Position numbers and translations under genes: made by a program. From an uncultured Candidatus Saccharibacteria bacterium (GTDB taxonomy: Bacteria > Patescibacteriota > Minisyncoccia > Phycocordibacterales > CSBR16-119), in NCBI GenBank assembly GCA_964557535.1, contig CAZLAD010000002.1, positions 21,560 to 85,559 on the forward strand: DNA of 64,000 nt, given 5' to 3'. How positions within the stretch are numbered: position 1 is the stretch's first letter; every line of letters starts with the position of its first letter. A model generated the notes under the pieces. It was given only the letters and a program-made list of their open reading frames with translations. It was not told the DNA's origin and did not search any database. Shown piece after piece: positions 2,194-53,024 of this stretch.

Positions 2194-2756
2194 GAGAAAT
2201 GTAATGGTATACTTATTTTGTGTCTACCACAAGAAAAGAGACCAGAACATACTCCGATCGTGCAGAATATATGCGAGAAGCAGTTAAACGAAGACGTATA
2301 AAGCTTCGTGTAATGGCTCGTGAATATGCTGGCGGTAAATGCAGAATCTGTGGGTACAATAAATCTTCCCGAGCATTAAATTTCCACCATCTTGATCCAA
2401 AGAAAAAAGACTTTGGTTTGGCGGATGGCGGAATAACCAGATCTTGGGAAAAAACTCGCAAAGAAATAGACAAATGTATATTACTTTGCGCAAATTGTCA
2501 CATGGAAGTGCACGACGGAATTACGCAGCTCCCTTCGGAAACGAAGAGATGAAAAACAAGGTGAATTGTCTGGAAGCCCGAGCTGTAACAACAGCGGGTA
2601 ATCAGCAGCCAAGCCTCAATAATTTTTGAGGAAGGTTCAGAGACTATCCTAAACGGAGTAGGCCGAGAGTTTCGGTCGAAGCGCCTTGCACCTAAATTCC
2701 GATTCGGAACACGGTGATGATATAGTCCATTCCTAGAAGTGATTTTAGGGTAAATG
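2194..2756 (+). ncRNA. Group I self-splicing intron (ORF-containing), inserted between tRNA positions 35/36
   Basis: The catalytic-core conserved elements are all present: P-like caacagc (~2600), Q aatcagcagcc (2610-2620), R gttcagagactat (2636-2648) and S gatatagtcc (2719-2728). The intron ends in G before exon 2. Confidence 0.75.
2220..2552 (+). CDS. HNH homing endonuclease encoded inside the group I intron
   Basis: Carries CRICGYNKSSRALNFHHLDP...CILLCANCHMEVH, the HNH/zinc-finger motif. Lies entirely within the intron, 5' of the ribozyme core. Confidence 0.75.
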   Translation: MSTTRKETRTYSDRAEYMREAVKRRRIKLRVMAREYAGGKCRICGYNKSSRALNFHHLDPKKKDFGLADGGITRSWEKTRKEIDKCILLCANCHMEVHDGITQLPSETKR

Positions 2757-40651: not shown

Positions 40652-41161
40652 CTACAAACGACGCGTATCGTACGCCCAGTGTAAAAGCGCCTGACGCTGA
40701 CGCGGACGACAAGCGAGATCTCCTACTCGGCAATTATGCGATATCTGGGCCAGATGGCGACGCATGGCATTCCAACGTTTTATCTGACGAGTGTCTTCAT
40801 CAGGAATTCTGCGACCCATGTAATAGCGACAATACCATTGAAACCACCCCCGCGGATCTTCGTGGTAAATCCAACCTTTGGCTCGCCAGACGGACAGCGG
40901 TTGGCTTGCATTTATTTTGAAATAATTTATTTTCGCATCACGAGCACCTTTGGCAAATTTGGCAAGCGTAAACCACGACTTTGGAAACTCTTTGCCACAA
41001 TCACGCATGTACACCCCGCCAAAAACTCCAATAGCAAGCATTTCGGCTGGCGTCAAATCTGGACGAAAATCGGGATGAAAATTTCTACCAACGGGAGCAG
41101 ACAAAACATATTCGTATTTTTTCTGCATTTTGTCGTTTACGACAACTTTCTTTTTGGGCAT
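40652..41161 (-). CDS. GC-rich hypothetical protein with a Trp-rich motif (RGWFQWYCRYYMGRR)
   Basis: ORF; family not recognised. Confidence 0.4.
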   Translation of the reverse strand: MPKKKVVVNDKMQKKYEYVLSAPVGRNFHPDFRPDLTPAEMLAIGVFGGVYMRDCGKEFPKSWFTLAKFAKGARDAKINYFKINASQPLSVWRAKGWIYHEDPRGWFQWYCRYYMGRRIPDEDTRQIKRWNAMRRHLAQISHNCRVGDLACRPRQRQALLHWAYDTRRL

Positions 41162-43505: not shown

Positions 43506-44816
43506 ATGAAAACTAATATTGAGGTTGTTTATGTTCGCACGGATCTACTTTCTGCTGCGGAATATAATCCACGCACGTGGGACTCAGAAGCCAAGAAGCA
43601 TTTAACAGAGAGTATTAATAAATTTGGTGTTGTTGATCCGCTCATCGTGAACGGTGCAACGAATCGAAAGAATATTGTTATCGGTGGGCACTTTCGTCTT
43701 GAAGTGTTAAAAGAACTTGGGCATGCCGAAGTTCCTGTCGTGTATCTAAACATACCCGACATAAACAAAGAGAAGGAACTAAATATTCGTCTCAATAAAA
43801 ACCAGGGAGAATTTGATCTCGATCTTCTAACATCTTTCGACGAAGGCTTATTAGCCGATATTGGTTTTTCAAGTGAAGAGCTTGATGATATTTTCCTTGA
43901 TGACATTGAAGAAGATGAGTTTGATCTAAAGAAAGCACTTGAGAGACTAGATATACAAAAAATTTCGGTAAAACCAGGAGATGTATACGAGATAGACGGC
44001 TCGCGTCTTATGTGTGGTGACTCGACAATAGAGTCTGACATGAAAAAGCTTGTGGGGAATGAAAAAGCCGACATGGTAATGACAGATCCACCATATATTC
44101 TCGACTACCTAACAAAACCAAACCAAGGAGGTTTTGGCGCAAATCAGAATAGAAAATATCTTGGAACCGACAGCTTGCCTCCAAACTTCACGGAGCTTTG
44201 GATGAGTAATGTTGCCGGGGCAGCCCAAAAGGATTTCTCTATTATCGTTTACGAGAATTGGAAGAATATTAGAACCATCTGGAATGAAATGGAGAAACAT
44301 TGGCGCGTCCGAAATATGATCGTTTGGCATGCCGCCAATAGAAGCCAGGGATATGCCGGCAAACACAAGTTCTTCAACAAGCACGACATCGCGATTGTTG
44401 GTACGACGCCAGGAAAAGATGTATCCAGCGAACAAGAAGATGCTCTTATCGAAAATGAATATGAGACGGCACTATTTGCAATTTCTGGAAGTCCTCATTG
44501 GGAGAAATATGAGAAAGGTAATCCATACTGTCCAACCGATTTCATCTCTCACAATGTAGCAACTGAAAAATCTTCTGGCCAAGGGGTTGTCTTTGGAACA
44601 AAACCAATCGAACTCTTGATTCCGTATATCAAGGTGCTGACCAAGCGTAATCAGTTGGTCCTGGAACCATTTGGCGGAAGCGGATCAACCCTCATCGCCT
44701 CCATTAAGATTAGTCGTCGATGCTTTACCATGGAGAAATCTCCCGTCTATTCTGAAGTCATCCTTACACGGTGGGAAAAATTAACTGGTAAGAAAAGAGT
44801 AAAAATAAATGCATAA
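43506..44816 (+). CDS. ParB-like nuclease domain fused to an N6A/N4C DNA methyltransferase (circularly permuted motifs: DPPY before FGGSG)
   Basis: N-terminal ParB/Srx fold (VDPLIVNG...GGHFRLEVLKELG), then MVMTDPPY (motif IV) and EPFGGSGSTLIAS (motif I). Confidence 0.75.
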   Translation: MKTNIEVVYVRTDLLSAAEYNPRTWDSEAKKHLTESINKFGVVDPLIVNGATNRKNIVIGGHFRLEVLKELGHAEVPVVYLNIPDINKEKELNIRLNKNQGEFDLDLLTSFDEGLLADIGFSSEELDDIFLDDIEEDEFDLKKALERLDIQKISVKPGDVYEIDGSRLMCGDSTIESDMKKLVGNEKADMVMTDPPYILDYLTKPNQGGFGANQNRKYLGTDSLPPNFTELWMSNVAGAAQKDFSIIVYENWKNIRTIWNEMEKHWRVRNMIVWHAANRSQGYAGKHKFFNKHDIAIVGTTPGKDVSSEQEDALIENEYETALFAISGSPHWEKYEKGNPYCPTDFISHNVATEKSSGQGVVFGTKPIELLIPYIKVLTKRNQLVLEPFGGSGSTLIASIKISRRCFTMEKSPVYSEVILTRWEKLTGKKRVKINA

Positions 44817-45264
44817 CAATGATATTAGAAAACAATTTATTGAAACTCTCGAAGAAGTCCCTTTCGTTAAATATGCTGCCAAGAAGGTCGGTATCAATCG
44901 TACGACTATATATCGATGGATGCAGGAAGACCCAAGATTCAGAATTCAAGTAGAAAAGTCTTTGGGTGAGGGCCGTAAATTACTTATCGAAGACGCGGAG
45001 TATCAATTACTAAAAAAGATTAGAAAAGATGGCAACCAAAGAGCCATAGAGTTTTTCCTAAAACATAATAATAAGAAGTATTATCCAAGAAAAACGATGG
45101 AGGTATATCCATTGGCTGAAGACCAGTATCAGATGTCGTTTGAAGAACACGCGGCTATCGAGTTGTGGTCAGAGAAGTTTGTTGAGCTATCTCCTATGTG
45201 GCGACGAATCTTCTCTGACATGGAAAAGAAGCTAGGAAACCCCGACGAAGACCGATCCTTATAA
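44809..45264 (+). CDS. HTH DNA-binding protein (terminase-small-subunit-like or regulator)
   Basis: VGINRTTIYRWMQ helix-turn-helix. Overlaps the upstream gene by 8 nt. Confidence 0.5.
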   Translation: MHNNDIRKQFIETLEEVPFVKYAAKKVGINRTTIYRWMQEDPRFRIQVEKSLGEGRKLLIEDAEYQLLKKIRKDGNQRAIEFFLKHNNKKYYPRKTMEVYPLAEDQYQMSFEEHAAIELWSEKFVELSPMWRRIFSDMEKKLGNPDEDRSL

Positions 45265-45276
45265 GGAGGAAGATGA

Positions 45277-45882
45277 TTAGTCGATTTGCACTAAGGTGTT
45301 GCAAGCCGTATCGTAACCATCACTCTCATTCTTCAAGAATTCACAGAGATTGCCACTATCGAAGTTCGACCAAGCGATCTTTTCATAGGTCGCTTTGTCG
45401 ATTGTATATACCAAGATCACTTTGTTTTCTGCATTCCCATATTTATCTGTCGTGTCGCCGTAGTACCAAACCAAGACATCGTACGCTTCTGGATGAGAAG
45501 AATATATTTCTTGGAATGTTTTGGCGGATAGCTCTCCTGTATTTCGGTATAAGGAATCTTTGTTGTAGAACGAAGAAAGAGAATATTTAACCGTGATCAT
45601 TTTCGTGTCGACAGGACGATCTGGGTCAGATTTCTCTATGTCCATTCCTACATAGGAAGCATGTGCAAGCGGAATGTCTTTAACAATCGCTTTTAGTCTA
45701 TCTTCTGGCGTTAGTGATTGTGCTGGAACATTTGTTGCAACAGTTTGTTCTGTTTTCTTGCCATCACCAGATCCGGCGATGACGAAAAGAAAAATAATAA
45801 AGACTACAATTCCAGTAATTACTGGGTGGCGTTTGATCCAGGACTTGGTTGTCTTAGGATCCATCATTGGGTGTTTATCCAT
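45277..45882 (-). CDS. N-terminally membrane-anchored extracytoplasmic protein, hypothetical
   Basis: TM helix VITGIVVFIIFLFVIAGSG, then a ~160-aa domain. Confidence 0.45.
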   Translation of the reverse strand: MDKHPMMDPKTTKSWIKRHPVITGIVVFIIFLFVIAGSGDGKKTEQTVATNVPAQSLTPEDRLKAIVKDIPLAHASYVGMDIEKSDPDRPVDTKMITVKYSLSSFYNKDSLYRNTGELSAKTFQEIYSSHPEAYDVLVWYYGDTTDKYGNAENKVILVYTIDKATYEKIAWSNFDSGNLCEFLKNESDGYDTACNTLVQID

Positions 45883-46167
45883 ATGTTATTACTAATTAAT
45901 AAATCCCGATGATGGATACAAAAAGCCCACCACGGGTAGGGCCCGAAAGCCCTCATACGAGTTTCCTCGTATGGCCAATCAGACAACCCCATGATGGGTT
46001 CTTTATGTCTGATTGGACTTTTTCACCATGCCCAGTAAGGGGTTTAGGCTACTTTATTTATTCGATTGTTCGACCATAATACCAAATAATAGGCATTACG
46101 CCCACCACCATAGCAGATTCCAGGATTTTGCGAAGGGGGTTACCAACAAGTTTAGATCTAAATTTTT

Positions 46168-48780
46168 TTACTTGATATCTTTTTTAGTTTCCACATTCTT
46201 GATACCCCAAGTTTCAAAAACCTCTCCTGTTATCCTTCTTAGATTTTCATTTTTTGATTTTATTAAATCAGGCATTTTTTTATCTAAGGGGTATTTCGAT
46301 AAGTTAACCCATGGCCACTGGTTCTTTTTAAGAAAACCGATTAATTGTTCTTGGGCGGCTTCATCGGAAGCATTAATCTTATCGACTAGCATGTCCATAA
46401 ATTTAGATGCGTATTCTGAGGGAGGAGGAATTTTTTGGAATCCTTGATTGATAAAATTAGCAATATTATCTGACAAGGCGGCTATATGTTTAGGGATGAT
46501 TCTTTTCCATATCTCTTCGGGTGTGGAAATATTTTGTTGAATTATAAAATTTAGACTCTGAATAAGAACATTAATATCAACTGAATCTTCAATCTTTTTC
46601 AATAGCTCCCCTTCGATCTCGGAAACCTTCCACGAACTATCGTCGGCTTTTGAGACTGCCCAAGTCGTAACGTCTGCATTTAAATCGTATACTTGTTTTA
46701 GAATTTTCTCTTTTAAGATTGTAATTCCGTTAGGTATAAAATATTTCAAAATTTCGAATCTCTTATCTCGTAGATCGTTATTCTCTCCTAACAAACCATC
46801 AGCAAAAGTATTTTCCATACCTTCCATTTCTTTTTGTACCGCAGGTTTATCTAGTTGTGGAAATAGATTTAACATTCTATTTGTTAAATCTGTTGGATTC
46901 TGAGGATAGAAATTCCTGTACCATCTAGTAAGTAGAGAGCTTGTGAAAATTCCAGGCTCAATAATGTTTGCGTTATCAAAATCGTTGGAATTTAGTATAA
47001 AATCAAATTTATTTTTAAAGCCATCGAAGATCGATTGTTCCTCGATAAGATCAATCCAGTGCGTAAAAGAATTAACGATATCAAATTTTTGTGCCAAATT
47101 TACAATAAAGTTGAGGTCTACGTCTTTTAATTTATCTGCAAATATTTTATGAACGGAATACTCTTTGGGAAACTGGGCTAATGCTATCATCAGAGCTTTT
47201 AAGATGCTTCCTCGTGTTTCTTCACCAAGACCTGGTAGTCTAGTCGAGACTACGCCCGCATAGTTAGATAAATTATTATCCCCAGAAGAAGCAAGAACGT
47301 TTTTTATTTGTACTGGATCACCAGTATCAATAATAGAAACAAAATCATCCCCAGATAATCCTCTATGATCACCAAAACTTGCATCTGCCGCCAAGAAAAT
47401 GAATGGTCGTATGTCAGCAATATCTAGACTGAAACCTTTATAGAATCTAGGATCCTCGTAGAGAAATGCCTCTATGAAACTTTTCTGACCCGAAGACATA
47501 TCTGTTCCGTACTTAGTTACTTCTTCATTTATTTTTACAGAATCTTTTTTCTCAACTAGGTACTCTAACTTTAGAAGTATCTCTTGATCATTGACAATTT
47601 TATCAAAAAGAGGCGGGCAAAGTTCTTGTAACATCAGAATACGTACTACGAGGAGGGGTTTATCGAGCATTTCCATAAAGTATTTCTTTTGTATTTCATC
47701 CTGATCACCAGATTTGCTTTGAATGATTTCAAAGGTGAATAATGTAGTTTCAATAAACCTGATAATTTGGCGATAGTTCTTACTGAAATATTTTTTTAAA
47801 TATCCGGCAAAAATAGTTTTATCATCTTCTTTAAGGAATATCTTATCTAGAGCCGAGTCTTTCTCCTTTAGCTTTTTATCAATGAATGAATCGATTTCCT
47901 TTTCTAATGGGAGAGGTAGGCGCCAATAAATATTAAATATTTTCTTTAAAAATCTTCTACCCTCCTCAAGTTGTTCAGGGCTGTTCGAATCCGGAAGAAT
48001 ATCTTTACCTAAATATCTTTCTAGAACGGTATGATCACCTGTTACCACGAATGTAATATCTTTTTTATCGAAGAACGTTCTTAGGTTATCTAGAACAGTA
48101 TGAGCAATTTCTGGAGTTACCCTATCAAGATCATCAACAAAGATAACAGGCTTCTTTTTATCTGATTTAAACGCATCAATAATTTTTCGCAAAAGCTCAT
48201 CAAATTGATCAATTGTAGAAATGGCATGATTACTTTTTTGCACAGTAATCATATTGCCCACAATACCAAGAAAGATTGGTATTCCCATTAACATTATCAA
48301 TGACTTCCAGTTTTGGATGAAAAGTTTGAAAGGATCAGAACATTGCATAACCATGTATACAATAAAGATCGCACCTGCAATCAAGAATAGATTTCCCCAA
48401 TGGACATTTGTCTCCGACGTGTCAAAATCTAGTGCTTTAAGGTCTTCTTTGACACCCGTATCAGTCAAATCACCAGCTAGTGTTTTCAAAAAATTTCTAA
48501 GGAAAGACGTACTATCGCTATCAGAAGCAAATTTCCAAGGATTAATTCTAAATATTTTAAATTTTTCTTCTTTAGAATCGGTCTGACTAACCAAATCTTC
48601 TTCTAATTGGTCCAAAAAGTGTGTTTTACCCTCGCCCCATTTCCCAGAAATACCAAAAATGAAGGATTCGCTATGCTTTCCGTGATTATCCTTTATTGTG
48701 TTGGCTACTTGTTTTACGAAGTATTTTTTACTATCCATAGTCTCGAATTTAGCATAAAAATCTTCATATTTATAGGGCAT
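46168..48780 (-). CDS. KAP-family P-loop NTPase (870 aa) with two TM helices inserted in the NTPase domain
   Basis: Walker A GISGKWGEGKTHF. The hydrophobic helices LFLIAGAIFIVYMVM and LIMLMGIPIFLGIVGNMI sit between Walker A and Walker B (VIFVDDLDR). A long alpha-helical C-terminal region follows. This is the defining KAP architecture. Confidence 0.7.
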   Translation of the reverse strand: MPYKYEDFYAKFETMDSKKYFVKQVANTIKDNHGKHSESFIFGISGKWGEGKTHFLDQLEEDLVSQTDSKEEKFKIFRINPWKFASDSDSTSFLRNFLKTLAGDLTDTGVKEDLKALDFDTSETNVHWGNLFLIAGAIFIVYMVMQCSDPFKLFIQNWKSLIMLMGIPIFLGIVGNMITVQKSNHAISTIDQFDELLRKIIDAFKSDKKKPVIFVDDLDRVTPEIAHTVLDNLRTFFDKKDITFVVTGDHTVLERYLGKDILPDSNSPEQLEEGRRFLKKIFNIYWRLPLPLEKEIDSFIDKKLKEKDSALDKIFLKEDDKTIFAGYLKKYFSKNYRQIIRFIETTLFTFEIIQSKSGDQDEIQKKYFMEMLDKPLLVVRILMLQELCPPLFDKIVNDQEILLKLEYLVEKKDSVKINEEVTKYGTDMSSGQKSFIEAFLYEDPRFYKGFSLDIADIRPFIFLAADASFGDHRGLSGDDFVSIIDTGDPVQIKNVLASSGDNNLSNYAGVVSTRLPGLGEETRGSILKALMIALAQFPKEYSVHKIFADKLKDVDLNFIVNLAQKFDIVNSFTHWIDLIEEQSIFDGFKNKFDFILNSNDFDNANIIEPGIFTSSLLTRWYRNFYPQNPTDLTNRMLNLFPQLDKPAVQKEMEGMENTFADGLLGENNDLRDKRFEILKYFIPNGITILKEKILKQVYDLNADVTTWAVSKADDSSWKVSEIEGELLKKIEDSVDINVLIQSLNFIIQQNISTPEEIWKRIIPKHIAALSDNIANFINQGFQKIPPPSEYASKFMDMLVDKINASDEAAQEQLIGFLKKNQWPWVNLSKYPLDKKMPDLIKSKNENLRRITGEVFETWGIKNVETKKDIK

Positions 48781-48800: not shown

Positions 48801-50147
48801 GTGTTTGCGTCATCCATAGAGTATATGGAAAAAGCGATTACAGGGCTTATAAGCCCACCAGTGTTACCCAGTATAGAGAAAGTCAGGTATTGTCTCTACG
48901 CTCGTAAATCCAGTGAGGATTCCAGCGAAAAACAGGCCCTTTCGGTGGATTCCCAAGTTAAGGAAATGTTGGCTATTGCCGAGCGAGAAAACTTAGAAAT
49001 CGTGGATATTCGGCGTGAGTCTCATTCGGCCAAGGATTCTGGTCAAAGACCTGTTTTTAACGAATTGGTTCGGGATCTCCGTAGTGGAAGATACACGGGT
49101 ATTTTAACCTGGGCCCCGGATAGACTTTCGAGAAATGCAGGAGATTTGGGCTCGCTCGTTGACCTGATGGATCAGAAACTTCTTCATGAGATAAGAACCT
49201 ACGGCCAGTACTTTAGAAATTCTCCGAATGAGAAATTTCTTTTGATGATTCTATGTTCACAAGCGAAACTTGAGAATGATAATAAAAGTATCAATGTTAA
49301 ACGTGGTCTTCGTACACGATGTGAAATGGGACTGTGGCCTGCGCCAGCTCCAATGGGATATTTAAATGAAATGAAGACGGACAGAAAAGGATATGTCTAT
49401 GTTGATCCAGAAAGAGGACATGTTATTAAAAAAATGTTTGAGAAAGTTGCCTTTGAAAAATGGAGCGGTAGAAAACTTTATCACTGGTTAAAGTTTGAGC
49501 TAAATTTTAAGACACCAAACGGCAATAAAGGCTTAACCTTGAGTTGTATTTATCTGATTCTTAGCAATCACTTTTATTATGGTACTTTTGAATTCCCAAG
49601 AAAAAGTGGTGTATGGTACAAAGGCATACACGAACCTATTATCACGAAAGAATTATTTGATCAGGTTCAAGAGCAGATGAGAAGCCAGTTCGTGAAATCA
49701 GAAACAAAAGAGTTTGCTTTCACGAAGCTTATGGCCTGCGGGCTGTGCGGTTCTGGCGTAACGGCTGATGAGAAATTTAAAAAGCAGAAAAATGGAAATA
49801 TACACAGACATGTTTATTATGGGTGTACTAGGGTACGCGACCAAAATTGTAAATGTGCATATATTAATGAGCCAGATCTTATTAAAGAATTTGAGTGCCT
49901 AATGGACGAAATTGATCTCAATGAGTTGGGGATGAAAGAAAAGATTAAACTTGAAATTGAACGATTCAAAAAGTTCCAGAAACTCGTTTCTGGTAAAAGC
50001 CAAATCATCAAAATTGATGAGGTTGATATACGAAATTACGCAAAGTTTGTTTTGGCTGAAGGAGCGCTGATTGAGAAACGTGAATTGCTTGGGAATTTAA
50101 AAGGAAAGATTATATTAGGAGATAAGAAAATCTCTTTAGTTTCCTAA
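48801..50147 (+). CDS. Large serine recombinase (resolvase catalytic domain + recombinase domain + zinc ribbon)
   Basis: YARKSSEDSSEKQALSVDSQ (catalytic Ser), DRLSRN, and CGLCGSGV...YYGCTRVRDQNCKC zinc ribbon. 448 aa. Confidence 0.8.
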   Translation: MFASSIEYMEKAITGLISPPVLPSIEKVRYCLYARKSSEDSSEKQALSVDSQVKEMLAIAERENLEIVDIRRESHSAKDSGQRPVFNELVRDLRSGRYTGILTWAPDRLSRNAGDLGSLVDLMDQKLLHEIRTYGQYFRNSPNEKFLLMILCSQAKLENDNKSINVKRGLRTRCEMGLWPAPAPMGYLNEMKTDRKGYVYVDPERGHVIKKMFEKVAFEKWSGRKLYHWLKFELNFKTPNGNKGLTLSCIYLILSNHFYYGTFEFPRKSGVWYKGIHEPIITKELFDQVQEQMRSQFVKSETKEFAFTKLMACGLCGSGVTADEKFKKQKNGNIHRHVYYGCTRVRDQNCKCAYINEPDLIKEFECLMDEIDLNELGMKEKIKLEIERFKKFQKLVSGKSQIIKIDEVDIRNYAKFVLAEGALIEKRELLGNLKGKIILGDKKISLVS

Positions 50148-50954
50148 TTCTTTTTTAAGAACAAAAATTTTCTTGGTAATCGTGAATTGAATAGTATTTC
50201 CTAGATCTTCGTACTTGAGCTTTTCTTTTAATTCGGGGTTAAATCTTTCGCGGATGTATTGGTTGAGCTGTTCAAGTTTCGACATGTCGCCGCCGAGCTC
50301 TTGTTCAAGTCGTCGAATAGAGTTAAACCGATAGTGGATAGGATGAAATTCATGAATGTTTCCGAAACCAGCCTTTTTAACATTTTCAATAAATTCATCT
50401 TCTCTAAAAAAGTATCTCTCGGTCATGAGCATGTCGAAGCCGCTCAATTCGTCTTTCTTGCGGATAATGTCTTGGAACAAGGTTTGAGTTTCATTGTCGA
50501 GCATGATGTCCCAGATGACAATCTTGCCAGTTGGCTTTAGTAACTTGTGGAACTCTTGTAGCACCTCGAGTTGCAAGGCCTTGGAAACCTCGTGGAGCCC
50601 CATTTTGAGTGCTATGGTATCGAAAAAAGATTCTTTGAATGGAGCTCCGGGCAAAGATGCGACAGAAAATCTTTCGGCTGGAAGATTTGGCAAATTTTCT
50701 CTCGCTCGCTGTACCTGTACATCACTTTCATCGACGAGATAGACGACTGCGTTCGGATTTCTCTCTAATACCTCTTTACCGATAGCTCCATATCCGCCCA
50801 TGGCGTCCAAAACGATCTCACCATCTTTCGGATCAATAGCATCAATAAACGCCTTTTTATCCGCAGGGTCAATCGAGTGGATGTACTCATAGGAAACTAT
50901 TCTATTGTCGAATCCTTGTTTCATAATTTTACAGATAATCTCCTCCGCTTTCAT
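50136..50954 (-). CDS. Class I SAM-dependent methyltransferase
   Basis: VLDAMGGYGAIG (motif I), YLVDESD (acidic post-I), KPTGKIVIWD. Confidence 0.65.
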   Translation of the reverse strand: MKAEEIICKIMKQGFDNRIVSYEYIHSIDPADKKAFIDAIDPKDGEIVLDAMGGYGAIGKEVLERNPNAVVYLVDESDVQVQRARENLPNLPAERFSVASLPGAPFKESFFDTIALKMGLHEVSKALQLEVLQEFHKLLKPTGKIVIWDIMLDNETQTLFQDIIRKKDELSGFDMLMTERYFFREDEFIENVKKAGFGNIHEFHPIHYRFNSIRRLEQELGGDMSKLEQLNQYIRERFNPELKEKLKYEDLGNTIQFTITKKIFVLKKELGN

Positions 50955-51750
50955 TTTTGAATTCCTTTCTGAATTGTTTCCATCCGATAAGATTGCCCAT
51001 TCTTTTTCTTGTGTTTAGTGCTTGAGCGACATGCTCGAATGGACTCCAGTGTCCAGACGAAGAAAGCCTCTCACATAATTTTAGATCGCTATTGATATCA
51101 GAAGTTTTTCCATCAAAAAGAGAGTAACTCACTCGTGCGCATCGAGCCGCACTAATCTTTTTTCTCATCTCTAGATCAAGGGTATGTTCAGTGTCTAAAA
51201 TAAAAGGAAGATGCCATTCATCAGATTGCAATATGTTTGGTTTCTGATCCTGTAAGAGTAAATTCATCCTTTCTGCGACATATCTGATTTCAGGCTGAGC
51301 GGCTTCGTTTGATCTTAGAGAAATAAAGTTGGACCACTCTGTCGCAGTTATAATCACATCAACCATGAGCCAAGGTTCTATGAGTCGATTCACCACCTCC
51401 TTATGCATTCCTAGTTTTTCTCCCAGCCAATGAAAGAAAACAGGTACATACCTAGACCAAAGCCATATCTTTTTTGCCAAGAATAGTTTTAGACCTCTAA
51501 AGGGCTTGCCAGATTGCATGCCAGCCCTGTTCTCACCGAAATATACTGGCAAGAAAGGATCATTAAGAACATATTTTCTAATTCTTTTTGCTGGAATAGC
51601 CCTACTCGAGGCAGAGTTTCTTGAAAGCGTTCGATGACTAATGATATGTCCCCAAAGAAATTTGGGGATCTTGAGAACAAAAGTTGCCAGACGCTTTTGG
51701 GTATCTGTTGATTCAGAATAAGTAATTAATGATACTTTAATTTTATTCAT
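50929..51750 (-). CDS. ThyX-like (flavin-dependent thymidylate synthase fold) protein with altered motif order and a degenerate signature
   Basis: N-terminal FVLKIPKFLWGHIISHRTLSRNSASSRA aligns with the ThyX segment [28 protein letters not shown]. The first Arg of the RHR signature motif is replaced by Ser. C-terminal AARCARVSYSLFDG...GHWSPFEHV resembles the ThyX N-terminal segment AARVSFD...GHETPFEH. Confidence 0.5.
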   Translation of the reverse strand: MNKIKVSLITYSESTDTQKRLATFVLKIPKFLWGHIISHRTLSRNSASSRAIPAKRIRKYVLNDPFLPVYFGENRAGMQSGKPFRGLKLFLAKKIWLWSRYVPVFFHWLGEKLGMHKEVVNRLIEPWLMVDVIITATEWSNFISLRSNEAAQPEIRYVAERMNLLLQDQKPNILQSDEWHLPFILDTEHTLDLEMRKKISAARCARVSYSLFDGKTSDINSDLKLCERLSSSGHWSPFEHVAQALNTRKRMGNLIGWKQFRKEFKNESGGDYL

Positions 51751-52879
51751 GTTTGTCTAGTATATCAGTTACCGTATCAGGGACGTCGATAAACCCAAGC
51801 TGTCCAATTTCGTTGTTTGTCAGAGCTTCTAAAGTTGATCCGTACAATAGGCCAATAGTACGTTCGATTTCTTCTGGGGTTGATTCGTATCGATTACCTT
51901 TGAATGTTATTGGAAACCCGTTGTTTATGAGTACCAAATTATCCCAAATAACATCTCCATGGATTTCAGAAGATTTAATACTGTTTTTTCTTATGTATAT
52001 TGTCGGGAACTCGCGATCAGCCGATGACATACTTATAAGGTAGAGCTTATAATCTAAAAGATCTTTAATTTCTTGAAGCTGTTCCTCGTTTAGAATATTT
52101 GAACCCGTCACACCAACCACAACATTAATATTATTATCTCGAATCAGGTTCACTAATTCAGATTTATCATGGTGAGCAATATCGTACCCTAATGCAAAAT
52201 AACCTTTCTCTTTAAATATCGAAAGCGTATTACTACCCATAGGTCCTAGTCCGACAACGAGAATTCTTGGTTCAGCAATGGAATACTGCTTGAACGCATC
52301 TACCATTCTATTGCACCCCAGCTCCGCGATGAGAGGACTTTCTTTTATAAGTTTGACCGAAGCACGGGCGACATTGAATATTGGGAAATGAACTTGTGAT
52401 TTTTCAAGCTTTCTAAAACCAGATGAGGTTTGTTCGATGCCGATGACAGGAATCTCTTTGGATATAGAATCAAATTTATCATTTACGATTCTAAGCAACT
52501 CTCCACCATCATCTAAAATAATAACTTTTGAAGGATTCTTGATCCGAGACAAGAATAAATCGAGTTGCTTGGTGCAATTTTCAGCATGTTCGATATCGAA
52601 TGAGACAGATTGATCGAAGTTTGGTTGGACAACATTAAATCCAGCGTCAGATAATTCTTTCAATACTTCATTACTGGTTGAATAGATCTTGCCGAAGATA
52701 TGAATGTTCTCTTTTGGAACACCAAACTCTACCAATAACTCAAACATTTTTGCTTGCGACTCGAGTATGTGCTGACAGGCGAGAATATAGACATTATCAA
52801 ATCCACCCTTTTTTGAATCAAAATAACGGGAGATCTCCTCCAGTAGAGAATACTTATAAGCTGTTTCCATGACTTCCAT
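51743..52879 (-). CDS. S-adenosyl-L-homocysteine hydrolase-like protein (divergent)
   Basis: ILACQHILESQAKMFELLVEFG...IHIFGKIYSTSNEV matches GCLHMTxQTAVLIETLxxLGA...CNIFSTQDHAA. VIILDDGGEL matches ILDDGGDL. NAD-binding VVGLGPMGS matches AGYGDVGKG. Confidence 0.55.
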   Translation of the reverse strand: MEVMETAYKYSLLEEISRYFDSKKGGFDNVYILACQHILESQAKMFELLVEFGVPKENIHIFGKIYSTSNEVLKELSDAGFNVVQPNFDQSVSFDIEHAENCTKQLDLFLSRIKNPSKVIILDDGGELLRIVNDKFDSISKEIPVIGIEQTSSGFRKLEKSQVHFPIFNVARASVKLIKESPLIAELGCNRMVDAFKQYSIAEPRILVVGLGPMGSNTLSIFKEKGYFALGYDIAHHDKSELVNLIRDNNINVVVGVTGSNILNEEQLQEIKDLLDYKLYLISMSSADREFPTIYIRKNSIKSSEIHGDVIWDNLVLINNGFPITFKGNRYESTPEEIERTIGLLYGSTLEALTNNEIGQLGFIDVPDTVTDILDKHE

Positions 52880-52950: not shown

Positions 52951-53024
52951 TGGCTGCGGAACCTGGACTCGAACCAAGATACCCTCCTCCAGAGGGAGGT
53001 GTCCTACCATTAGACGATTCCGCA
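52951..53024 (-). tRNA. tRNA-Gln(CUG), CCA encoded
   Basis: Cloverleaf UGCGGAA-UC-GUCUAAUGGUAGGAC-A-CCUCC-CUCUGGA-GGAGG-GUAU-CUUGG-UUCGAGU-CCAGG-UUCCGCA-G-CCA, similar to E. coli tRNA-Gln2. Confidence 0.75.

What the first reader, a model, noticed from the sequence alone, without database searches (positions are those of the whole stretch)
45277..48780. Membrane-inserted KAP NTPase paired with a small membrane-anchored protein: candidate defence/abortive-infection module
The 870-aa protein has Walker A, then two TM helices, then Walker B, then a long helical region. This is the KAP architecture, a family repeatedly found in anti-phage islands but poorly characterised. It is divergently arranged with the recombinase and convergent with a 201-aa membrane-anchored protein. 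The 285-bp spacer between them contains an 11-bp perfect inverted repeat (ccaatcagaca ... tgtctgattgg, 46002-46048) and other dyad elements. These could be a regulatory RNA or an operator.
Basis: partly seen in the sequence, partly recalled or inferred. Interest (0 to 1): 0.7.

Follow-up and report, generated by a model that had tools for sequence, protein, structure and literature searches.

The report
KAP defence gene beside LOOT RNA
A membrane-inserted KAP ATPase sits as probable anti-phage cargo in an integrase-bearing island of a CPR bacterium, but it is not paired with the small membrane protein: the hairpins between them are a known orphan RNA (LOOT), which has its own promoter and terminator and belongs with that small gene.

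Summary
The sequence features are real, but two details are wrong. Both genes lie on the minus strand, so they are tandem, not convergent. The 11-bp inverted repeat is at 45975-45985/46006-46016, not 46002-46048.

The 870-aa ORF (probably 856 aa) is a bona fide KAP P-loop NTPase with two TM helices between Walker A and B and an ARM/HEAT-like C-terminus. Full-length relatives are common in Patescibacteria. In all ten inspected loci they sit in defence or mobile islands, and none has the 201-aa neighbour. The two-gene module is therefore not supported; a single-gene defence reading is, and has a 2026 experimental precedent.

The spacer holds a full-length LOOT RNA (Rfam RF03000, 79.8 bits). The inverted repeat is its P2 stem.

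Across about 120 LOOT loci I found:
- a conserved extended -10 box;
- a covarying pseudoknot between the P2 apex and a 3' tail, followed by a U-tract;
- an integrase within 5 kb upstream in 18/30 loci, against 2/34 downstream;
- a co-oriented ORF 30-75 nt after LOOT in 89/96 loci, and 71% of those ORFs carry an N-terminal hydrophobic anchor.

The real pairing is LOOT plus the 201-aa gene. KAP is cargo inserted between the serine integrase and LOOT.

The parts
46168..48780 (-). KAP-family P-loop NTPase (maximal ORF 870 aa; probable start 48738, 856 aa). It has two TM helices inserted in the NTPase domain and an alpha-solenoid C-terminal half.
   Evidence: Pfam PF07693 3.7e-32. Motifs and TM segments. 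AF2 pLDDT 83. Foldseek best hits are RdrA at 1e-5, then ARM/HEAT repeat proteins. 268 homologues, mostly Patescibacteria.
48622..48645 (-). Walker A (GKWGEGKT, residues 46-53)
   Evidence: invariant in alignment A1
48241..48396 (-). Two transmembrane helices (residues 129-147 and 162-180) between Walker A and Walker B
   Evidence: Hydropathy 1.89 and 2.11; helices 128-147 and 149-178 in the AF2 model
48130..48147 (-). Walker B (VIFVDD, residues 212-217)
   Evidence: D216, D217 and D219 are invariant
45938..46050 (-). LOOT RNA (Rfam RF03000), full length. Helices: P1 46024-46050, P2 45975-46016, P3 45954-45973, P4 45938-45953.
   Evidence: cmscan 79.8 bits against gathering score 46.4, model positions 1-121 of 121
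45975..46016 (-).
   Evidence: Exact coordinates. In 108 LOOT sequences, 9 of 11 pairs show compensatory double changes and 80% of cells are canonical, against 34-56% for slid controls.
46076..46084 (-). Extended -10-like box TGgTATTAT of LOOT's own promoter. The probable transcription start is near 46069, at the conserved AC-AAYTNAATA.
   Evidence: Conserved in the alignment of 105 loci and of 5 loci. The sigma-70 consensus scan did not call it, so it rests on conservation only.
45920..45936 (-). 3' tail outside the Rfam model: CCCGTGGTGGG (45926-45936) pairs with the P2 apex CCCATCATGGG (45988-45998), and is followed by the U-tract at 45920-45924. This forms a pseudoknot and terminator-like end.
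   Evidence: Own apex:tail duplex averages -22.6 kcal/mol, against -14.0 with other loci's tails and -11.1 shuffled. Eight pairs are 97-99% canonical with several pair types. Terminator-like call at 45940-45926.
45277..45882 (-). 201-aa protein with an N-terminal membrane anchor, an extracytoplasmic alpha/beta domain and two conserved Cys. It is the ORF that follows LOOT by 55 nt.
46139..46160 (-). Direct repeat TAGATCTAAAC-TTGTTGGTAAC (unit WGTWGRYAAV), 8 nt after the KAP stop and followed by CTTCGCAA
   Evidence: The unit is enriched about 20-fold at -150..-50 from LOOT: 25 hits against about 1.2 expected. It is linked to SerRec loci (15 of 19). It brackets the cargo in L160, L047 and L112.
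48801..50147 (+). Large serine recombinase/integrase (probable start 48825), divergent from KAP
   Evidence: Resolvase + Recombinase + Zn_ribbon_recom; phrog_95 integrase 5e-57. The same family is found in 46 of 127 LOOT loci.
44809..45264 (+). HTH protein resembling a terminase small subunit, part of the element backbone
   Evidence: PHROG 4044 and 4102, terminase small subunit. Family 2 is found in 23 LOOT loci.
43506..44816 (+). ParB-N / N6_N4 DNA methyltransferase fusion, part of the element backbone
   Evidence: Pfam; phrog_498 6e-76. Family 1 is found in 27 LOOT loci. 61-67% identical copies lie next to KAP in L001, L009, L152 and L160.

Best explanation
The region is part of a chromosomally integrated, phage-related element of a Patescibacteria (CPR) bacterium.

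The element backbone recurs in many metagenomic contigs. It consists of a ParB-methyltransferase, a TerS-like HTH protein (plus TerL in relatives), an integrase, and the LOOT RNA followed by a small variable gene.

The KAP NTPase is a stand-alone cargo gene. It sits in the integrase-proximal variable slot, between the serine integrase and LOOT, where relatives have either nothing or other defence genes. Most likely it is a single-protein anti-phage defence. It would be a membrane-tethered, STAND-like NTPase whose C-terminal alpha-solenoid senses an infection cue and whose NTP hydrolysis drives the response. The last step, at the membrane or through an unknown C-terminal activity, is inferred and not shown.

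The spacer dyads are LOOT, a compactly folded RNA of about 150 nt. It is transcribed from its own promoter and ends in a pseudoknot helix plus U-tract. The 201-aa exported protein gene is the typical LOOT-downstream gene. It is probably expressed by read-through or attenuation of that terminator, so it is coupled to LOOT and not to KAP.
For: KAP identity and architecture.

Chromosomal CPR setting: DnaE, SecA, RNase J and PyrG are in the window, and homologues carry Patescibacteria names.

Defence and mobile context of ten subfamily loci:
- type I RM directly upstream of KAP (L150, L156);
- MmeI-like enzymes (L152, L157);
- a ResIII/MTase pair (L155);
- Shedu SduA_C, HEPN_AbiU2 and an AAA_16 protein;
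- Ser or Tyr integrases in 7 of the 10 loci.

Same layout elsewhere: SerRec, KAP, LOOT, small ORF, TerL, HTH, ParB-MTase in IMG/VR contig L160. There the backbone proteins are 62-66% identical to the window's but KAP only 37%.

Empty and differently filled slots: SerRec lies 120-165 nt from LOOT in 12 loci. L022 has MmeI, a DEAD helicase, T5orf172 and Shedu in the slot.

The window's 117 nt upstream of LOOT align to the L002 SerRec-LOOT spacer with score 57, against 23.7 +/- 3.8 for shuffles.

Experimental precedent for single-gene KAP defence next to serine recombinases: PMC13552941.

LOOT:
- Rfam match; 20 of 20 sampled pattern hits pass the gathering score.
- Conserved promoter box.
- Pseudoknot plus U-tract.
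- The next ORF is co-oriented in 89 of 96 loci at 30-75 nt.
- 52 of 73 such ORFs have an N-terminal hydrophobic segment, against 136 of 596 other ORFs (p = 4e-16).
Against: - There is no experimental or expression data for this protein, RNA or lineage.
- The KAP subfamily is unusually well conserved over its full length (mean column identity 43%) and is widespread in CPR. That is also compatible with a cellular role.
- PADLOC models (PifA, QatA, PDC-S20) match only the NTPase part, so no defence-system caller would name it.
- The published KAP defences sit next to small serine recombinases and have other C-termini and TM layouts.
- Three of the ten KAP loci show no integrase within 8 kb.
- Some LOOT loci have housekeeping-looking upstream genes, such as a ClpB-like gene in L081 (judged from motifs only, not scanned) and tRNAs in L107 and L128. 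LOOT could therefore be a host gene rather than element-borne.
- Whether transcription really stops at the U-tract is untested.
Confidence: 0.6

Rival explanations
1. One reading: KAP and the 201-aa membrane protein form a two-gene defence or abortive-infection module, and the spacer dyads are its operator or regulatory RNA.
For: The two genes are adjacent on one strand and both are membrane-associated. No terminator-like site was called between KAP and LOOT, so some read-through from KAP is possible.
Against: None of 21 KAP loci has a 201-aa homologue. The six loci holding 201-aa homologues lack KAP. L160 has the same layout but an unrelated downstream gene. The spacer RNA has its own conserved promoter whatever lies upstream of it. 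G-U pairs and compensatory changes rule out a double-stranded DNA operator.
Confidence: 0.04
2. The KAP protein is a housekeeping membrane NTPase of CPR bacteria, for example in envelope or symbiosis-related signalling, and only happens to lie in an island here.
For: There are 268 hits, and 110 of the 120 listed cover at least 90% of the query, spread across many CPR classes. The C-terminal half is strongly conserved. Locus L159 has NDK, a SurA-like protein and MscS upstream.
Against: The neighbours differ in every locus but are repeatedly RM, Shedu, Abi and integrase genes. Local GC is low. In backbones that are 62-66% identical, KAP is only 37% identical. KAP single-gene defences have been validated elsewhere.
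Confidence: 0.12
3. This KAP subfamily works as an accessory or back-up of restriction-modification systems (a PrrC-like guard of RM). The window copy is a detached member relying on the nearby ParB-methyltransferase or acting alone.
For: KAP starts 3-32 nt after the last RM gene on the same strand in L150 (HsdR + YgjP), L156 (HsdR), L157 (MmeI-like) and L155 (ResIII).
Against: The window, L160, L002, L153, L158 and L159 have no restriction enzyme directly upstream of KAP. The RM types differ, which fits defence-island clustering as well as it fits functional coupling.
Confidence: 0.15
4. LOOT is a host sRNA gene that serves as an integration hot spot (like tRNA or tmRNA genes). On this view, the integrase, KAP and other cargo accumulate upstream of it rather than LOOT being part of the element.
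For: Integrases lie almost only on the 5' side: 18 of 30 loci against 2 of 34. Both Ser and Tyr integrases occur next to LOOT. Some LOOT loci have tRNA or ClpB-like upstream neighbours. A 201-aa homologue sits in an FtsH-tRNA-prfB-ftsEX context without LOOT.
Against: Backbone genes of one and the same element type flank LOOT on both sides, with SerRec upstream and TerL/HTH/ParB-MTase downstream, in the window, L022, L054, L047, L149 and L160. The same genes occur in tandem order ParBMT-HTH-TerL-SerRec-LOOT in L113 and L122. LOOT is seen in only 4 of about 14 full-length KAP loci from CPR genomes.
Confidence: 0.3

Closest known systems
Single-gene KAP P-loop NTPase antiphage proteins found next to serine recombinases (RADS pipeline; EF_KAP and three metagenomic KAPs; PLoS Biol 2026, PMC13552941)
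   Same: A KAP NTPase domain with membrane helices, a large C-terminal region of unknown function, no obligatory partner gene, and a position beside a serine recombinase.
   Different: The recombinase here is a large serine integrase (Recombinase + Zn-ribbon domains), not a small one. Both TM helices lie inside the NTPase domain. The C-terminus is an ARM/HEAT-like solenoid conserved across CPR. The host is an uncultured Patescibacterium. Activity has not been tested.
PifA (F plasmid), QatA (Qat system) and PDC-S20 in PADLOC
   Same: They share the KAP NTPase core: PifA 3.8e-20, QatA 5.6e-15, PDC-S20 6e-14.
   Different: The matches cover only the N-terminal part (profile positions 25-257 of 720 for PifA). 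There are no QatB, QatC or QatD neighbours. The C-terminal half is unrelated.
RdrA of the RADAR system (PDB 8fnt, 8hr8)
   Same: It is the best solved-structure match by fold (Foldseek E 1e-5) and by profile (E 0.003). Both are NTPases with a helical C-terminal region and a defence role.
   Different: TM-score is only 0.26. RdrA has no TM insertion. There is no RdrB deaminase gene nearby.
LOOT RNA motif (Rfam RF03000; Weinberg et al. 2017, NAR 45:10811)
   Same: A full-length match at 79.8 bits with all model helices present.
   Different: The following features were found here and are not in the Rfam model or in its 'sRNA' label:
- a promoter box;
- a 3' tail forming a covarying pseudoknot, followed by a U-tract;
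- integrase linkage;
- an exported-protein ORF downstream.
The 2017 supplement was not readable, so prior mention of any of these cannot be excluded.
Defence hot spots of integrative elements and phage satellites (P4-like and P2 hot spots; cited from general knowledge, not checked here)
   Same: Variable defence cargo sits at a fixed place next to the integrase in an otherwise conserved backbone.
   Different: The backbone here is ParB-MTase, TerS-like HTH, TerL and an integrase, in CPR bacteria. The slot is bordered by a structured RNA and a direct-repeat motif.

Membership tests
KAP family P-loop NTPase (Pfam PF07693; Aravind et al. 2004) | Profile match above the curated cut-off | tested here: met
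   112.2 bits against cut-off 20, residues 21-345
KAP family P-loop NTPase (Pfam PF07693; Aravind et al. 2004) | Walker A and Walker B with transmembrane helices inserted between them | tested here: met
   Walker A at 46-53, TM helices at 129-147 and 162-180, Walker B at 212-217
Qat system (QatABCD) | QatA accompanied by QatB, QatC (QueC-like) and QatD (TatD-like) genes | tested here: not met
   Only a partial QatA hit. The neighbours are a recombinase, LOOT and the 201-aa protein, and no PADLOC hits were found for them.
PifA | Full-length similarity to the PifA profile | tested here: not met
   Only profile positions 25-257 of 720 are matched
RADAR (RdrA/RdrB) | RdrA ATPase with an adjacent RdrB adenosine deaminase | tested here: not met
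   Only a weak fold match (TM 0.26). No deaminase among the neighbours scanned (43506-45882 and 48801-52879).
Single-gene KAP antiphage proteins linked to serine recombinases (PMC13552941) | KAP domain plus a required C-terminal region, encoded next to a serine recombinase | tested here: met
   KAP is divergent from a serine recombinase 20-86 nt away. The recombinase is of the large type, whereas the paper used small ones.
Single-gene KAP antiphage proteins linked to serine recombinases (PMC13552941) | Protection against phage that depends on Walker B | not testable with these tools
   This needs cloning and phage challenge
LOOT RNA (RF03000) | Covariance-model score at or above the gathering score over the whole model | tested here: met
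   79.8 bits against 46.4, positions 1-121 of 121, E 2e-13
LOOT RNA (RF03000) | Helices supported by covariation among relatives | tested here: met
   P2: 9 of 11 pairs are compensatory. P3: 100% canonical. P4: 83% canonical. P2a is only 42% canonical in a MAFFT alignment, equal to the slid controls, although a local apical hairpin is still favoured (z -2.1).
Large serine recombinase / integrase | Resolvase catalytic domain + Recombinase domain + zinc ribbon | tested here: met
   PF00239, PF07508 and PF13408 are all above cut-off
Intrinsic terminator / transcription attenuator | G+C-rich helix immediately followed by a U-tract, plus an alternative pairing for one strand | tested here: inconclusive
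   The helix plus U-tract is conserved (mean 5.7 T in 8 nt) and competes with the apical hairpin (-22.6 against -5.6 kcal/mol). Actual termination and switching were not tested.
Riboswitch | Ligand-dependent structural switch | not testable with these tools
   There is only indirect evidence of a complex fold: a GAAA loop in 114 of 114 sequences, and a receptor-like CCUAAx...yAUGG internal loop.

The most novel reading that the evidence does not exclude
LOOT, the integrase and the direct-repeat site TGTWGRTAAC-TGTWGGTAAC may together form a cargo-capture and expression platform of CPR integrative elements.

On this reading, cassettes such as KAP enter at the repeat site. That site brackets the cargo on both sides in L160, L047 and L112. 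In 'empty' relatives, the interval that KAP occupies in the window is only 5-15 nt long.

LOOT would then be a riboswitch-like attenuator, not a trans-acting sRNA. Its pseudoknot-terminator would gate expression of variable exported 'moron' proteins.
Probability: 0.15. Interest if true: 0.85.

Novelty: new member of a known kind. Interest (0 to 1): 0.5.

Why it matters
For the KAP gene, the result extends a defence class validated only in 2026 to the Candidate Phyla Radiation. It also defines a large, well-conserved subfamily (NTPase with an internal TM hairpin plus an ARM/HEAT-like sensor) that current defence callers do not name.

For LOOT, an orphan structured RNA known only from metagenomes, the survey gives the first concrete genomic grammar:
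- its own promoter;
- a pseudoknot-terminator;
- an integrase upstream;
- an exported-protein gene downstream.

That turns 'unknown sRNA' into testable hypotheses: attenuation, read-through control and linkage to mobile elements. The shared-strand pairing may also explain the unusual 'cross-covariations' reported for this family (PMC7657543).

Tried and rejected
- The Weinberg 2017 main text does not discuss LOOT, and its supplement is not held. Other literature gives only Rfam listings and a covariation remark.
- The afdb50 fold library was unavailable.
- A profile search of A1 against the PDB gave only RdrA at E 0.003.
- A Tyr-integrase HMM found only 2 more integrases near LOOT.
- Pairing of the tail with the segment after the U-tract is only weakly supported: -14.8 against -12.0 with other loci's segments.
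- I looked for hybrid half-sites at the ends of the KAP insert in the window and found none on the SerRec side.
- LOOT as a cofactor specific to serine recombinases was rejected, because L155 has LOOT directly after a tyrosine integrase.
- A retron-like reading was rejected. Reverse-transcriptase genes occur near LOOT in four loci, but in L026, the locus checked, the gene is on the opposite strand.
- The sigma-70 consensus scan did not call the LOOT promoter, so that promoter rests on conservation only.


Full report
**1. Observation**

The window region holds three ORFs:
- a minus-strand ORF at 46168-48780 (870 aa);
- a minus-strand ORF at 45277-45882 (201 aa);
- a plus-strand ORF at 48801-50147 (448 aa).

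The 870-aa protein matches Pfam KAP_NTPase (3.7e-32, residues 21-345). Walker A (GKWGEGKT) is at residues 46-53 and Walker B (VIFVDD) at 212-217. Two strongly hydrophobic segments, 129-147 and 162-180, lie between them. An AlphaFold2 model built on 26 homologues (pLDDT 83) shows the helical hairpin inside the NTPase fold and an all-helical region from about residue 480 to 860.

The deposited protein and the homologue consensus start at M15, so the real start is probably 48738.

The 201-aa protein has one N-terminal TM segment. The 448-aa protein is a large serine recombinase with Resolvase, Recombinase and Zn-ribbon domains and matches PHROG 'integrase'.

The spacer is 285 bp and contains the quoted 11-bp perfect inverted repeat. 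The arms are at 45975-45985 and 46006-46016, about 30 nt from the coordinates given. An IR this long occurs in only 0.35% of dinucleotide shuffles.

**2. The spacer is a known RNA**

Rfam finds a full-length LOOT RNA (RF03000) at 45938-46050 on the minus strand, at 79.8 bits against a gathering score of 46.4. The 11-bp repeat is its P2 helix. The 'other dyads' are P3 (45954-45973) and P4 (45938-45953).

LOOT is listed as a metagenome-derived sRNA of unknown function (PMC7779021). The only other remark I could find is that it shows an unusual number of 'cross-covariations' (PMC7657543).

**3. Is the 201-aa gene KAP's partner? No.**

The KAP protein has 268 relatives, and 110 of the 120 listed cover at least 90% of the query (~850-870 aa). 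The source names present are all Patescibacteria/CPR lineages. In 21 loci from species-representative genomes, none encodes a 201-aa homologue.

Conversely, the 16 homologues of the 201-aa protein occur without KAP:
- L022: next to a four-gene block (MmeI-like enzyme, DEAD helicase, T5orf172, Shedu);
- L026: next to a serine recombinase;
- L027: in an FtsH-tRNA-prfB-ftsEX context.

**4. Is KAP in a defence or mobile context? Yes.**

Gene neighbourhoods of subfamily members:
- L150 and L156: type I RM directly upstream of KAP;
- L152 and L157: MmeI/Eco57I-like enzymes with a PLD-SNF2 helicase;
- L155: a ResIII/MTase pair and an AAA_16 protein;
- L152: Shedu SduA_C;
- L156: HEPN_AbiU2 and GIY-YIG;
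- L002: a 363-aa protein whose sequence looks DUF262/HNH-like (from reading the ORF, not scanned) and a methylase.

Serine or tyrosine integrases are present in 7 of 10 loci. ParB-methyltransferase, a TerS-like HTH and TerL recur.

The KAP segment has GC 0.34-0.35 against about 0.42 for the window. The window itself is chromosomal: DnaE, SecA, RNase J, PyrG and GatA are present.

PADLOC models (PifA, QatA, PDC-S20) hit only the NTPase part. The nearest solved fold is RdrA of RADAR (E 1e-5, TM 0.26), followed by ARM/HEAT repeat proteins for the C-terminus.

A 2026 paper shows that single-gene KAP NTPases beside small serine recombinases protect against phage. Protection needs Walker B and the C-terminal region, and for EF_KAP it does not act by abortive infection (PMC13552941). 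The defence reading is therefore reasonable, and no longer new in kind.

**5. What LOOT sits next to**

A pattern derived from five LOOT copies retrieved 120 metagenomic loci and one IMG/VR contig. All 20 sampled hits pass Rfam's gathering score.

All-against-all clustering of flanking ORFs shows these recurring families:
- the window's serine recombinase family, in 46 of 127 loci;
- ParB-MTase, in 27 loci;
- the TerS-like HTH, in 23 loci;
- TerL, in 13 loci;
- the 201-aa family, in only 8 loci.

An integrase lies within 5 kb upstream in 18 of 30 loci with enough flank, against 2 of 34 downstream (p = 2.6e-6). It is either divergent at 120-165 nt or in tandem at 33-59 nt. L155 has a tyrosine integrase in that place.

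The next ORF after LOOT is co-oriented in 89 of 96 loci, mostly 30-75 nt away, and belongs to many unrelated families. Yet 52 of 73 of these ORFs have an N-terminal hydrophobic segment, against 136 of 596 other ORFs in the same loci (p = 4e-16).

The 201-aa gene is thus a typical LOOT-downstream gene.

**6. LOOT anatomy beyond the Rfam model**

*Promoter.* An extended -10-like TGnTAT(T/A)AT box and a conserved AC-AAYTNAATA precede the model start. In the window they are at 46076-46084 and ~46069.

*Pseudoknot and terminator-like end.* After P4, a conserved tail pairs with the P2 apex. In the window this is CCCGUGGUGGG with CCCAUCAUGGG; other classes have GCUCGUCGUCAG:CUGGCGGCGAGC and CCCCUAGUCAGG:CUUGGCUAGGGG.
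- Each locus's own apex:tail duplex averages -22.6 kcal/mol, against -14.0 with other loci's tails and -11.1 shuffled.
- Eight pairs are 97-99% canonical in 108 sequences, with several pair types.
- A U-rich tract follows immediately, and the scan calls a terminator-like site there.

*Competing hairpin.* The Rfam P2a hairpin is much weaker (-5.6 kcal/mol, z -2.1) and shares strands with the pseudoknot. That is an attenuator-like arrangement, and it may account for the reported cross-covariations.

*Other fold features.* G-U pairs make the structure strand-specific, so it is RNA and not a DNA operator. P3 always ends in GAAA. P1 carries a CCUAAx...yAUGG internal loop resembling the 11-nt tetraloop receptor (the identification of the receptor rests on general knowledge).

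**7. KAP as an insert**

In 'empty' relatives the SerRec-LOOT spacer contains, in order:
- a GATGACGC box;
- an AGTCCAGR box;
- 5-15 nt later, a tandem direct repeat TGTWGRTAAAC-TGTWGGTAAC;
- CTTCGCAA, and then the LOOT promoter.

In the window, the repeat and CTTCGCAA lie 8 nt after the KAP stop (46139-46160), while the first two boxes lie at the other end of KAP. The LOOT-proximal 117 nt align to L002 with a score 8.8 sd above shuffles.

IMG/VR contig L160 has the same order: SerRec, KAP, LOOT, small ORF, TerL, HTH, ParB-MTase. Its backbone proteins are 62-66% identical to the window's but KAP only 37%. The repeat is present on both sides of KAP there.

L047 and L112 likewise have the repeat on both sides of their inserts. 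The unit is about 20-fold enriched at -150..-50 from LOOT.

Whether this marks a recombination site or duplicated operator DNA is open.

**8. Verdict**

The KAP gene is most likely a stand-alone defence cargo of a CPR integrative element, and so a new member of a known kind. The proposed partnership with the 201-aa protein is not supported. The spacer element is the known LOOT RNA, whose context and 3' pseudoknot-terminator described here are the more interesting by-product.

Noticed in passing
window 45920-45936 with 45988-45998; loci L029-L148: The LOOT RNA has a conserved 3' tail, outside the Rfam model, that forms a covarying 11-12-bp pseudoknot with the apex of P2. A U-tract follows it directly. 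The pseudoknot competes with the Rfam P2a hairpin.
   Followed up: yes
127 LOOT loci (L002, L022-L026, L029-L149, window): The ORF right after LOOT is co-oriented in 89 of 96 loci. In 71% of cases it encodes a protein with an N-terminal hydrophobic anchor (23% for other ORFs), although the protein families are unrelated.
   Followed up: yes
window 46139-46160; L160 5793-5815 and 8465-8482; L047, L112, L073, L026: A direct-repeat motif TGTWGRTAAC (x2) lies between the serine integrase and LOOT. Copies are present on both sides of the inserted cargo in L160, L047 and L112, which may mark a cargo-entry or recombination site.
   Followed up: partly
L150, L155, L156, L157 (KAP at about 8001 in each): In four loci KAP starts 3-32 nt after the last gene of a restriction-modification system on the same strand (type I, MmeI-like, ResIII type). 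This suggests operonic coupling in part of the subfamily.
   Followed up: partly
window 46026-46048 and 45962-45965: The LOOT P1 internal loop CCUAAA...CAUGG resembles the 11-nt GAAA-tetraloop receptor. Across loci the variable positions co-vary (A/C 56, C/U 24, G/U 11). The P3 loop is GAAA in 114 of 114 sequences.
   Followed up: partly
window 50136-52879 and 52951-53024: Beyond the recombinase lie a SAM methyltransferase (272 aa), a ThyX-like protein (273 aa), a 378-aa protein with no Pfam hit, and then tRNA-Gln. They may be further island genes for nucleotide modification, and the tRNA may mark the island border.
   Followed up: no
window 2476-2749 (+): A group I catalytic intron (72.6 bits) lies just upstream of a 1298-aa ORF with no Pfam hit. 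No rRNA or tRNA host gene was detected around it. L020 has a similar intron.
   Followed up: no
window 40652-41161 (-) and L009 7474-7899: A 169-aa protein of unknown function is 66% identical to a gene about 3 kb downstream of KAP (and ~6 kb from the ParB-MTase) in L009. The element may therefore extend left to about 40.3 kb.
   Followed up: no
L014 9621-9723 and 10552-10654: Two SAM riboswitch aptamers lie within 1-2.5 kb downstream of a distant KAP relative in a Peregrinibacteria genome.
   Followed up: no
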